Source: Chrysomallon squamiferum (taxonomy: Eukaryota > Animalia > Mollusca). Taken from it: a stretch of 64,000 nucleotides of DNA. The DNA lies in NCBI GenBank assembly GCA_012295275.1, contig CM022677.1:20398001-20462000 (forward strand). The letters run 5' to 3'. Below the pieces are notes generated by a model. The model had not been told where the DNA came from, did not search any database, and worked only from the letters and a program-made list of their open reading frames with translations. The position numbers and the translations under genes were made by a program. Positions 36,515 to 62,705 of the stretch are shown piece by piece. Within the stretch, counting starts at the first letter, position 1; each line of letters opens with the position of its first letter.

Positions 36515-37444
36515 ATGAACAGTTTTGCTCTAGTGGTTTTTCTAACTGTAGGCCTGCACGTCATGGTTTCGAAAGTGGCTGCGCAGTGTCCTAGTCACTG
36601 CAGGTGCACAGTGAAAAGTAAGACGGACGTGACCGTAAGATGCCTCGGCATCAGCTCGATTCCGAGCGACTTCTTCAAGACGTACAAGACGGTGACGACG
36701 CTGGTGCTGAACGAAAACAGACATCTCGTTCTGCAGGCCGGTTGCTTTAACGACATCAAAACCACCATAAAAAACCTCTACATGCGTAACTGCGATCTGG
36801 TCACCATTCCATATGCTGTCCATGCTTTGCCAAGTTTGGCGAGACTCGACATTTCGGAAAACCCACTGAATCTACTGAAGAAAGAAACCTTCAGAAGCCC
36901 ACCTTGTCTGGACACCTTGATCATGTCCTCGTGTCAGTACCCCTTGACAGACCAGCTTTTCATTTACCAAAAATCCTGTCTGAAAAAGATCATTCTCTCC
37001 AACAGAAGACTGGTTAATGTCCCCAAGAATCTATTCACCGGACTGACGTCAGTTATAGCCATCAGCTTGAAGAATACTGGGATAGTGCAATTGGCACCTT
37101 TAGCTTTTGGCACAATCCCTGTACGGACGATAGACTTATCAGAAAATAGGATAGTTAAAATAAAAGCAGGAGCGTTTCAAGGACTTGGAGACATTATTTT
37201 GATTTTTATCAACAATCACATGTCAAGCTTAACTTTTGTTCTGGGCTACGAACAAAAGAAATTTATAACAATGTTTCTGACGGGCAAACAGAACCTCGTC
37301 TGTAACTGTCTCATGTACCGCATACTCAAAAGCACTTTACCTGGAAGAGTCAAGGGTTCGTGCAGAATGCCAGATAACTCACTGTTTGAGCTGAACAAGA
37401 ACCCAGAACCTATGAGAGCAAAGTTTCGTTGCTTAGGTGAGTAA
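36515..37444 (+). CDS. Extracellular leucine-rich repeat ORF/exon: signal peptide, LRRNT, about 8 LRRs, LRRCT
   Basis: gccATG start; hydrophobic N-terminus; CPSHCRC...VRC cap; repeats such as [11 protein letters not shown] and [23 protein letters not shown]-cap NLVCNC...C...C. Acceptor at 36472-36473; donor after 37436. Confidence 0.95.
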   Translation: MNSFALVVFLTVGLHVMVSKVAAQCPSHCRCTVKSKTDVTVRCLGISSIPSDFFKTYKTVTTLVLNENRHLVLQAGCFNDIKTTIKNLYMRNCDLVTIPYAVHALPSLARLDISENPLNLLKKETFRSPPCLDTLIMSSCQYPLTDQLFIYQKSCLKKIILSNRRLVNVPKNLFTGLTSVIAISLKNTGIVQLAPLAFGTIPVRTIDLSENRIVKIKAGAFQGLGDIILIFINNHMSSLTFVLGYEQKKFITMFLTGKQNLVCNCLMYRILKSTLPGRVKGSCRMPDNSLFELNKNPEPMRAKFRCLGE

Positions 37445-61400: not shown

Positions 61401-62705
61401 ATAATTGGCTAATACTTTACATGGATAATCAGTTCTCCTGGCCCAGACCTTGCAAGTTATGGCTGCTGATGCCAGTTCTGGGTGGGGCTTGAAGTTGTTC
61501 TCACAGGCCACCTCTGGTACCATGTCTGGCAACAACCATCCCATCTTTTGTAACAATATTCTAGGTCATTCAAGCCATCTGAAAATGCTCTCCATAATAA
61601 TAATTATTATTCTGTGGTAAAAACTTTTCCATCAAGAACAGATTTCATTACATGGCATATTAACATTTGTTTCAAAATTCACAGAGTTTATTATTATCAG
61701 ATAAACAACTATACATATACAGAACTCGTTTCTGTCCTAGCAGGGTATGATTGTGATCAAAATGACATTGTAGGACCAAACTCTATGAAAATGAGTGTAA
61801 AGACCAATCCATATGCACAGAAAGCTAATGACTCTGTTTCATAAAATCAGTAGAATATTACCAGTGTTCTAATTAGGGTTTATCTGATTCAAGATGTCAA
61901 ACTGGTAATTTAAAAATATTTTCTACGGCCTTGAAATGTTGTATAATCAATCTGGCGCAATTTATTTATTTATTTATGTACATTTTTATATCTGTTTTCT
62001 TTCACATGTTTATTTAGTTGTTTGTTTTTTTTTTGTTTTTTTTTAAATATTCAACTAATTAATTAATTAATTTGCTTGTTAATTTATTTATTTCATAATT
62101 TATTCATATATTTATCTAATATTTATTTGTATAATTTATTTATTTATATATTTACTTATTTTATTTATTTATTTATTTATTTATTTATCTGCTTTTATAT
62201 TTATTTATTTATTTACTTACTTATTTGCTTTTGTTTTTATTTATTTATCTTTACATTTATTTAACTTTTTATGTATTTATTTAATTGTAGAGAAAGAAAG
62301 AAATCTTCAGCACAAAAATCATCAAAGAGTAATGTGTCTAGGAAAGGTTCTGGGAGGGGACGTTCACTTGGTAAGACAGGACTGGTCAGTAGAAAAGGAT
62401 CAAAAACTAGGAGAGCATCAGGCAGTAGTAGTAGGAAAGGATCAACCAGTAGTAGTAGGAAAGGATCAGCGAGTAGGAAAGGATCAGCAAGTAGGAAAGG
62501 ATCAACCGGTAGTAAGAAAGGATCAGTCAGCAAGAGGAAATCATCCAGAGCTTCCCAAAATAATCCAGCCATCATTGAGGAGACGCACAAGAAGAAAGTT
62601 CACAACGTTAGCTTTTTTTCCCCTTTCAATACAGAAATCGTTTTAAACGGAACAAAGAATGTTAATATACAAGGTTCTCAGGTGCCTTGGGAAAAAGAGA
62701 AATGA
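36515..62705 (+). CDS. Gene C: signal peptide - LRR domain - 2 TSP1-like - 19 EGF-like - TM - SRKGS-repeat tail (about 1220 aa)
   Basis: Exons 36515-37436, 39712-39735, 40258-40419, 42176-42322, 19 EGF exons 43059-56668, linkers 57336-57359, 58628-58657, 59505-59531, TM 60111-60186, 60671-60709, 61042-61068, 62291-62705. Phases are consistent throughout apart from one extra base in exon 47383-47476. The join between the LRR exon and the rest is inferred from the phase-1 AG|GTGAGT donor. Confidence 0.75.
40258..40419 (+). CDS. Gene C TSP1-like exon 1
   Basis: [54 protein letters not shown]; 162 nt, phase 1-1; similar Cys pattern to gene B TSP1 exon 4. Confidence 0.85.
42176..42322 (+). CDS. 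Gene C degenerate TSP1-like exon 2
   Basis: [49 protein letters not shown]; 147 nt if the donor is C|gttggt. Confidence 0.7.
42355..42996. repeat. Long (GA)n/(TA)n compound microsatellite
   Basis: About 640 bp of mostly GA dinucleotides. Confidence 0.95.
43059..56668 (+). CDS. Gene C: 19 phase-1 exons, each encoding one EGF-like module
   Basis: 43059-43148, 43813-43911, 45552-45644, 46640-46732, 47383-47476 (94 nt, GC donor), 47887-47979, 48215-48307, 48902-48994, 49350-49442, 49825-49917, 50659-50751, 51849-51941, 52373-52465, 52757-52849, 53127-53219, 54703-54795, 55320-55412, 55937-56029, 56576-56668. Sixteen are exactly 93 nt; pattern C-x3-C-x9-C-x2-C-x-C-x8-C. Confidence 0.92.
43976..45475. 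repeat. 1.5-kb intronic minisatellite, 33-39-bp units, roughly 39 copies
   Basis: gtcagtcactgatgtttgtacttatttgtcacccggtct and shorter variants, highly homogeneous. Confidence 0.97.
46505..46618. repeat. 36-bp tandem repeat x3 just upstream of an EGF exon acceptor
   Basis: ttaagatgtgttgataatcaagttargtaactctaa. Confidence 0.9.
53848..53910 (+). pseudogene. Decayed EGF-module pseudo-exon
   Basis: tttgcag|AC AGA TGT AAT CTG CGG (DRCNLR), then after a 1-nt loss CTA AAT GGA GGA ACT AAA (LNGGTK)...TGG ACT GGA (WTG); central Cys residues and donor are missing and there is an in-frame TAA. Confidence 0.6.
53945..54336. repeat. 53-bp minisatellite, about 7 copies
   Basis: aaatatttgtttacctacaaatgatgtcattctgtctgtggtatatttgtcat. 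Confidence 0.95.
57336..59531 (+). CDS. Gene C: three phase-1 linker micro-exons (24, 30, 27 nt)
   Basis: 57336-57359 GYMSPYKS; 58628-58657 [10 protein letters not shown] (weaker acceptor); 59505-59531 DSDRLHYLL. Confidence 0.62.
60111..60186 (+). CDS. Gene C transmembrane exon (76 nt, phase 1 to 2)
   Basis: tttatag|GT CTA ACT...TTA TT|gtaagt encodes [25 protein letters not shown]; followed by 60671-60709 [13 protein letters not shown] and 61042-61068 RLRRRSSER. Confidence 0.85.
62291..62705 (+). CDS. Gene C terminal exon: basic Ser/Arg/Lys-rich tail with SRKGS repeats
   Basis: ttgtag|A GAA AGA AAG...; the frame matches the phase-2 upstream exon and ORF 62271-62705; six SRKGS plus SKKGS; ends VPWEKEK*. 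Confidence 0.85.

What the first reader, a model, noticed from the sequence alone, without database searches (positions are those of the whole stretch)
36515..62705. Unusual receptor architecture: LRR head + 2 TSP1-like + 19 EGF-like stalk + TM + basic repeat tail
Seen: the 309-aa LRR ORF looks like a stand-alone gene, but a consensus donor (TTAG|GTGAGT, after 37436) falls in phase 1 just after the last LRRCT cysteine. The next exons (39712-39735, 40258-40419 and onward) are all phase 1, and I found no other signal-peptide exon for them. The summed exons give 1221 codons after correcting one indel. Known: Slit is LRR+EGF but secreted and carries LamG; LGRs, Tolls and vasorin have other combinations. 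I do not recognise this domain order. Inference: an LRR recognition head held far from the membrane on a long disulfide-rich stalk, as in adhesion, immune or gamete-recognition receptors.
Basis: partly seen in the sequence, partly recalled or inferred. Interest (0 to 1): 0.8.

Follow-up and report, generated by a model that had tools for sequence, protein, structure and literature searches.

The report
LRR-tipped, EGF-stalked invertebrate membrane receptor
One spliced RNA joins a leucine-rich-repeat head, through an inferred stalk of about twenty small cysteine-rich repeats, to a membrane anchor and a very basic tail, making a likely cell-surface recognition protein in a domain order for which we found no match.

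Summary
The gene is real and transcribed. One 4370-nt RNA contig holds the LRR exon, the last EGF exon, the transmembrane exon and the tail, and a second sample shows the first splice. The LRR donor splices to a missed EGF exon (39265-39357), not to 39712. The RNA also uses mini-exons 58628 and 60671, carries an extra A that would end the protein at 1266 aa, and has about 186 nt more in the middle than the assembly shows. The middle junctions were not read directly. Order: signal peptide, 8 LRRs, EGF, two divergent TSP1-like modules, 19 (perhaps 21) atypical EGF-like repeats, TM, tyrosine-free Lys/Arg/Ser tail. Two upstream genes use the same exon cassettes, and Gigantopelta aegis proteins pair this EGF type with other heads and similar tails. 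None of 133 relatives of the EGF module carries an LRR. It is not Slit, a TLR or vasorin. Most likely it is a lineage-specific, exon-shuffled adhesion or recognition receptor; ligand and tissue are unknown. New architecture of a familiar kind; moderate interest.

The parts
35280..35403 (+). 5' non-coding exon; about 25 nt more come from further upstream
   Evidence: 30 of 30 shown loose letters of the X1 contig before 36473 match 35373-35402; acceptor at 35280 inferred from the sequence
36474..37436 (+). Exon with ATG (36515), signal peptide, LRRNT, 8 LRRs of about 24 aa and an LRRCT-like cap; phase-1 donor
   Evidence: covered and spliced in X1 and X2
39265..39357 (+).
   Evidence: joint 37436-39265 in X1 and X2; Pfam EGF_2 E=4.8e-4, below cut-off
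39712..39735 (+). Candidate 24-nt linker exon
   Evidence: splice signals and open phase-1 frame; no RNA cover seen (inconclusive)
40258..40419 (+). TSP1-like module 1 (6 Cys, WxxW)
   Evidence: no Pfam hit; Atlas neighbours are TSP1 families; model pLDDT 83, top Foldseek rows are TSR domains at E 0.2-1; inclusion in the transcript inferred from length
42176..42322 (+). TSP1-like module 2, degenerate (4 Cys); a stronger donor at 42326 would need an indel
   Evidence: inclusion inferred from length
43059..56668 (+). 19 EGF-like exons, mostly 93 nt, phase 1-1, starting at 43059, 43813, 45552, 46640, 47383 (94 nt, frame broken in the assembly, GC donor), 47887, 48215, 48902, 49350, 49825, 50659, 51849, 52373, 52757, 53127, 54703, 55320, 55937, 56576
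   Evidence: only the last is directly covered by RNA
53848..53903 (+). Broken 5' half of a further EGF-like exon, followed by a 53-nt minisatellite; decayed or misassembled
   Evidence: nhmmer E=0.003, tandem array 53984-54336
57336..59531 (+). Three juxtamembrane mini-exons: 57336-57359, 58628-58657, 59505-59531
   Evidence: GT..AG joints in X1
60111..60186 (+). Transmembrane exon, 76 nt, phase 1 to 2
   Evidence: joints in X1; hydropathy peak 3.16, the only one outside the signal peptide
60671..62606 (+). Cytoplasmic tail exons 60671-60709, 61042-61068, 62291-62606: 65% Lys/Arg/Ser, no Tyr, 14 [RK][RK]xS sites in 108 aa
62607..62880 (+).
   Evidence: separate 288-nt X1 contig 62593-62880, depth 4.4
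63757..64000 (+). Candidate last exon for the 335 nt of the contig that lie beyond 62606
   Evidence: acceptor and AATAAA seen in the sequence; not tested with RNA
338..19707 (+). Neighbour gene A (3' part): 7 EGF exons of the same type, 76-nt TM exon, basic tail built from 15-nt microexons
   Evidence: DNA only
23421..31000 (+). Neighbour gene B: candidate signal exon, five TSP1-like exons, TM exon 29971-30058, short basic tail
   Evidence: DNA only; ends approximate

Best explanation
This is one transcribed gene for a single-pass membrane protein whose LRR head likely binds a protein ligand on another cell, a microbe or the matrix while an inferred rod of about twenty EGF-like repeats holds it away from the cell surface. 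Shown: signal peptide, LRR exon, first EGF, last EGF, TM and tail lie in frame on one RNA contig. Inferred: the TSP1-like and middle EGF exons fill the 2196 nt between; the stalk is a spacer of some tens of nm (estimate from recalled EGF dimensions) and not a Notch-type calcium-binding or fucosylated array; the tail has no enzyme, TIR or tyrosine motif, so it would act by binding acidic membrane lipids or cortical partners, released when its serines are phosphorylated. The gene most likely arose by adding a one-exon LRR head to a local tandem family of phase-1 EGF/TSP1 cassette genes.
For: Joint 37436-39265 in two samples. One 4370-nt contig (same length, depth 10.4 and consistent coordinates) spans LRR to tail; ATG to stop is 3801 nt and the middle 2196 nt, both multiples of three. 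19 of 19 intact EGF exons tested have cysteine spacing 3-9-2-1-8. Tail: net charge +37 in 108 aa, no NPxY or YxxPhi, no Pfam domain. Gene A shares the EGF type, the 76-nt TM exon and a basic Ser-rich tail; its 22 of 22 15-nt microexons are open in phase 2, against 14 and 6 with stops in the other phases. Four Gigantopelta aegis proteins on a contig of one length carry this EGF type with other heads (V-set Ig E=1e-4 in one); two have TM plus tail and rank first and second of 33 TM-plus-tail proteins for Lys/Arg/Ser content, both Tyr-free.
Against: No ligand, tissue or localisation data. Middle joints unread; 186 nt of the contig are not in the assembly. EGF calls stay below Pfam cut-offs and the EGF profile finds only one weak PDB match (E=0.21). 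TSP1 calls are weak (no Pfam or PDB sequence hit; no Foldseek E<=0.001). The published ERM-binding motif is absent from the first 40 tail residues. The tail does not align to the Gigantopelta tail by BLASTP (best E=12), and this gene's EGFs score no closer to Gigantopelta EGFs (26.4) than to other hits (28.1), so common descent with those proteins is not shown. All RNA support comes from one study; 1 of 3 RNA runs lacks the gene.
Confidence: 0.55

Rival explanations
1. It is specifically a microbe-sensing, TIR-less pattern receptor that pairs with a separate TIR-bearing membrane protein, as proposed for Hydra HyLRR-2.
For: [quoted passage not shown] TSR proteins are candidates for symbiont recognition in gastropods and cnidarians (PMC7663992, passages). 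The RNA runs are labelled metatranscriptomic.
Against: Only 8 LRRs; best structural-database sequence matches are LRRC15, IGFALS and LGR4 ahead of TLR3; the one TIR protein hit is weak (E=6e-6). No TIR partner gene seen in the window. A library label says nothing about function.
Confidence: 0.2
2. It is a gamete- or self-recognition protein from a fast-evolving gene cluster.
For: Tandem cluster with exchangeable heads; no close relative of the LRR head in three searches; differences between runs and assembly in the LRR exon (3 substitutions).
Against: The LRR exon differences are few, not the high polymorphism expected of allorecognition genes (recalled expectation). No tissue data. The head searches need shared exact words and may miss relatives.
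Confidence: 0.12
3. The basic tail is the working end: it targets the protein to the inner nuclear membrane or is cut off and enters the nucleus to bind nucleic acid.
For: Arg/Lys clusters and RKxS repeats resemble nuclear-localisation and protamine-like sequences (resemblance recalled); net charge +37.
Against: LRR, TSP1-like and EGF arrays are typical of cell-surface proteins; nothing tested here points to cleavage or nuclear targeting.
Confidence: 0.08
4. The long form is an artefact or a decaying gene, and the LRR ORF stands alone.
For: Frame-breaking indel in exon 47383, degenerate second TSP1-like module, broken EGF half at 53848; the contig could join haplotypes.
Against: Two samples splice out of the LRR exon and none reads through; contig lengths are in frame; one-base indels also break exons of genes A and B and one differs from run X3 in an intron, which points to assembly error.
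Confidence: 0.05

Closest known systems
Slit (PMC10084454, passages)
   Same: N-terminal LRR followed by EGF repeats
   Different: Slit is secreted, has four LRR domains, LamG and a cystine knot; this has one LRR domain, TSP1-like modules, a TM and a tail
Vasorin/Slit-like 2 (architecture recalled: LRR, EGF, FN3, TM)
   Same: LRR cap followed at once by one EGF; single-pass
   Different: no FN3 seen; two TSP1-like modules and 19 or more EGFs instead; EGF spacing atypical
Hydra HyLRR-2 and the sponge LRR+Ig+EGF protein (PMC6043800, passages)
   Same: LRR protein without its own TIR; EGF-like domains in the sponge protein
   Different: no Ig; much longer stalk; TSP1-like modules; long basic tail; no ligand or partner shown
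Elysia chlorotica transcript with LRR_8 x3 + TSP1 x5 (PMC7663992, supplement 2 row 42)
   Same: LRR joined to TSP1 in a gastropod
   Different: listed without EGF or TM; homology not tested
Gigantopelta aegis uncharacterised proteins XP_041355772, XP_041355339, XP_041355343, XP_041355792-4
   Same: same 3-9-2-1-8 EGF type; two have TM plus Tyr-free Lys/Arg/Ser tail
   Different: 1-3 EGFs only, non-LRR heads, no sequence-level proof of kinship
MEGF10/Draper/SREC-type EGF receptors (recalled)
   Same: long EGF array, TM, cytoplasmic tail
   Different: six-cysteine repeats, LRR head, no NPxY or tyrosine motif

Membership tests
Extracellular LRR superfamily (LRR_Other class of PMC2235866) | Signal peptide, LRR array with cysteine caps, plus a non-Ig/FN3/TIR domain | tested here: met
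   class definition read in passages
Slit | Secreted, no TM | tested here: not met
   TM exon on the same contig
Slit | Four LRR domains, LamG, cystine knot | tested here: not met
   one LRR domain; all visible exons assigned; the 186 unseen nt are too few for these
Toll-like receptor | Cytoplasmic TIR domain | tested here: not met
   tail is low-complexity, no Pfam domain
Vasorin | LRR followed by a single EGF | tested here: met
   joint 37436-39265, though many more EGFs follow later
Vasorin | FN3 domain before the TM (recalled) | tested here: not met
   last EGF joins three mini-exons and the TM; 186 unseen nt are under the size of an FN3 domain (recalled)
HyLRR-2-like TIR-less receptor | Microbial ligand response through a separate TIR protein | not testable with these tools
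   needs binding or reporter assay
TSP1 repeat (TSR) | Six Cys and WxxW | tested here: inconclusive
   module 1: 6 Cys and WxxW; module 2: 4 Cys and WxxW; neither has CxxS/TC or RxR, 3 of 4 gene-B modules have CxxS/TC; motifs from PMC7663992 passages and recall
TSP1 repeat (TSR) | Three-stranded TSR fold | tested here: inconclusive
   module 1 model pLDDT 83; all listed Foldseek rows up to rank 32 are TSR-bearing entries but best E=0.21; module 2 not modelled
EGF-like domain | Six Cys with C-x-C-x8-C end | tested here: met
   19 of 19; EGF_2 E 5e-4 to 0.12 in 6 of 7 exons scanned, all below cut-off
Notch-type calcium-binding, O-fucosylated EGF | C2-x4-S/T-C3 spacing and calcium consensus (recalled) | tested here: not met
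   C2-C3 spacing 9 and C3-C4 spacing 2 in 19 of 19
MEGF10/Draper engulfment receptors | NPxY and ITAM-like tyrosines (recalled) | tested here: not met
   no Tyr in the tail
ERM-binding adhesion receptors (CD44, CD43, ICAM-2) | Basic juxtamembrane cluster plus (R/K)-x2/3-(Y/L)-x-(L/V/I) | tested here: not met
   basic cluster present, motif absent in the first 40 residues

The most novel reading that the evidence does not exclude
This window shows part of an undescribed clustered receptor family of a gastropod lineage, in which interchangeable heads (LRR, V-set Ig, TSP1) are shuffled onto a 93-nt EGF cassette stalk of variable length and signal through a phospho-switched polybasic tail instead of TIR or ITAM motifs, serving as a symbiont- or self-recognition complex.
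Probability: 0.15. Interest if true: 0.75.

Novelty: new variant of a known kind. Interest (0 to 1): 0.42.

Why it matters
Single-pass LRR proteins with extra domains other than Ig, FN3 or TIR are rare in the four model animals surveyed (0 worm, 0 fly, 1 mouse, 1 human; PMC2235866 Table 2). This gene is a clear case of a receptor assembled by local exon shuffling, with donor-type cassettes visible in the two neighbouring genes. Its EGF and TSP1 modules fall below Pfam cut-offs, so such proteins would be annotated as LRR-only or uncharacterised. If the family recognises microbes or self, it gives a concrete candidate for invertebrate recognition without TIR or tyrosine motifs. Without function data it remains one more shuffled invertebrate surface protein.

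Tried and rejected
No genome was held for this window, so copy number and synteny are untested. LRR head searches found no close relative: 4 weak generic LRR hits among 2371 long candidates, 0 of 989 near-length candidates, 0 of 156 metagenome stretches; Atlas gave generic LRR clusters. The full-length protein is not in the protein collection as far as reaches. Single-sequence AlphaFold of the LRR head was poor (pLDDT 42) and was not used. The TSP1 profile found nothing in PDB sequences; VIA-align fold searches could not be run. A search for hidden exons to explain the 186 missing nt found only the broken half at 53848; two 93-nt EGF exons fit the length exactly, but one 183-189-nt TSP1 exon fits too under other donor choices. 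A separate signal-peptide exon in 37500-39700 was not supported: the only sizeable intronic RNA contig (38589-38912, 324 nt) shows no joint. X4 has no cover of the gene; this is no proof of absence. Tail versus Gigantopelta BLASTP was not significant (and protein 11 used a wrong frame and are discarded). Four look-ups in earlier scan findings were empty. Ten paper searches showed no description of LRR-EGF-TSP1-EGF-TM; the library is open-access only and figures are not held.

Full report
Observation. The window is AT-rich, microsatellite-rich animal DNA. The ORF 36515-37444 encodes 309 aa with a hydrophobic N-terminus, cysteine caps and eight LRRs at about 24-residue spacing. Its best PDB sequence matches are LRRC15, IGFALS and LGR4. 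Downstream lie 93-nt phase-1 exons with six cysteines. The pattern C-x3-C-x9-C-x2-C-x1/2-C-x8-C occurs 25 times on the + strand (19 in this gene, 6 in an upstream gene), never on the - strand and never in 20 base shuffles.

RNA test of the key splice. Three runs hold the LRR exon, two of them RNA from two samples of one study; a third RNA run of that study does not. Laid on 36250-39760, a 4370-nt contig of X1 and a 201-nt contig of X2 both join 37436 to 39265 by a GT..AG intron. No joint to 39712 and no RNA read-through into the intron was seen. X3 covers the introns, as DNA would. The X1 contig's 5' loose end matches 35373-35402, a non-coding exon.

RNA test of the far end. Laid on 56230-62890, a contig of the same length (4370), depth (10.4) and strand, with consistent coordinates, covers the last EGF exon and joins 57336-57359, 58628-58657, 59505-59531, the TM exon 60111-60186, 60671-60709, 61042-61068 and 62291-62606. 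I take it to be the same record; record numbers do not carry over between calls. It has one A more than the assembly after 62556, which gives a stop at 62561-62563; ATG to stop is 3801 nt, 1266 aa. Its last 335 nt lie outside the stretch, after a GT at 62607. A second contig covers 62593-62880 unspliced. Whether the extra A is an assembly error or an allele is open; one-base indels also break exons at 3180, 13779, 25383 and 47383.

The untested middle. Between 39357 and 56576 the contig has 2196 nt; the 21 visible exons sum to 2011 nt, or 2010 without the extra base in exon 47383. The 186-nt excess equals two 93-nt EGF exons, but other donor choices allow one TSP1-sized exon. Only a broken EGF half at 53848 was found as a candidate. 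The place of the TSP1-like and middle EGF exons in the transcript is therefore inferred from length and frame. The 24-nt exon 39712-39735 got no cover from any of the 4 runs, which is inconclusive.

Domains. All 19 intact EGF exons of this gene have spacing 3-9-2-1-8; 6 of 7 scanned hit Pfam EGF_2, all below cut-off. The spacing excludes the Notch-type fucosylation and calcium consensus (recalled); 7 of 19 have S/T-G at the place of the recalled O-GlcNAc consensus. TSP1-like module 1 has no Pfam hit, but its Atlas neighbours are TSP1 families (best 0.91, recognition below threshold) and its model (pLDDT 83) ranks TSR structures first without significance. Module 2 has four cysteines and is degenerate or misassembled. 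The tail (108 aa to the indel) is 65% Lys/Arg/Ser, net +37, with 14 [RK][RK]xS sites, no Tyr and no Pfam domain.

Surroundings. Gene A (to 19707) has seven EGF exons of the same type, a 76-nt TM exon like this gene's, and a tail of 15-nt microexons, 22 of 22 open in phase 2 and encoding Ser/Lys-rich pentapeptides. Gene B (about 23421-31000) has five TSP1-like exons and a TM exon. Neither was tested with RNA. All ectodomain cassettes are phase 1-1, which permits shuffling, and the LRR head is one exon with a phase-1 donor.

Relatives. A profile of 25 EGF exons found 13 proteins in the word-indexed search and 116 among 1.84 billion representatives. Of 133 proteins then held, none matched the LRR head or held the strict LRR motif; none of the 48 new hits scanned with Pfam showed an LRR family among the rows listed (best five per protein). 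Many are gene fragments, which weakens this negative, and the LRR itself was not run in the full-library search. The module rides with MACPF, VWA, PAN, kinases, TSP1 and bacterial pilin-like N-termini, so it is a mobile module. Four named hits are Gigantopelta aegis proteins on a contig of the same length, one with a V-set head; two have TM and a Tyr-free basic tail, ranking first and second of 33 for Lys/Arg/Ser. Against kinship: no tail alignment and no excess EGF similarity. A gastropod source is therefore plausible, not established.

Mechanism. Best reading (0.55): a type I surface receptor whose LRR head binds a ligand at a distance set by the EGF stalk, and whose polybasic tail anchors to membrane lipids or cortex under serine phosphorylation control. 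The transcript's ends and topology motifs are shown; ligand binding, stalk shape and tail action are inferred. The ERM motif given in PMC7073024 (passages) is absent. Rivals: TIR-less microbe sensor (0.2), gamete or self recognition (0.12), nuclear-acting tail (0.08), artefact (0.05).

Comparison and novelty. It belongs to the extracellular LRR superfamily but fails the tests for Slit, TLR, vasorin and MEGF10-type receptors. Papers seen: PMC6043800, PMC6526912, PMC10084454, PMC2235866, PMC7073024 (passages); PMC7663992 (passages, section 3.2, searches in supplements; file 1 was cut when stored; Figure 4 not viewable). The last lists an Elysia transcript with LRR_8 x3 + TSP1 x5 and another with TM + TSP1 x2 + EGF x2, but no row with all four. 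Ten searches of the open-access library showed no description of this order. Verdict: real gene, new domain order built from known parts, interest 0.42.

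Noticed in passing
window 10903-18777: Array of 23 microexons (22 of 15 nt, one of 16 nt) inside tandemly repeated introns of gene A; 22 of 22 are stop-free only in phase 2 and encode S-K/H-x-K/T/A-S/A pentapeptides, a basic tail built one exon per repeat. Not tested with RNA.
   Followed up: partly
window 23421-31000: Gene B: five divergent TSP1-like exons plus TM, nearly invisible to Pfam (best E=0.28).
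   Followed up: partly
window 47477-47478: Apparent GC donor for the EGF exon 47383-47476; exon 43813 has either a GC donor at 43906 or a GT donor at 43912.
   Followed up: no
window 40420-41420 and 53984-54336: Intronic tandem repeats that copy the 3' end and donor of the preceding exon, a possible source of new microexons or decoy donors.
   Followed up: no
window 62563-62607: If the RNA's stop is right, an intron starts 43 nt after it, within the distance usually tolerated by nonsense-mediated decay (recalled rule).
   Followed up: no
window 38589-38912: 324-nt intronic contig in RNA run X1 (depth 8) with no joint; pre-mRNA, DNA or a transcribed repeat.
   Followed up: no
protein P0005 (also P0060, P0073, P0078): Bacterial pilin-like protein (N-methylation motif in P0005) carrying nine EGF-like repeats of the same 3-9-2-1-8 spacing; top hit. 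The others have pilin-like N-termini by eye.
   Followed up: partly
proteins P0038, P0079, P0084, P0090, P0097, P0104, P0107, P0117, P0120, P0123, P0124: The same EGF type often accompanies MACPF domains.
   Followed up: no
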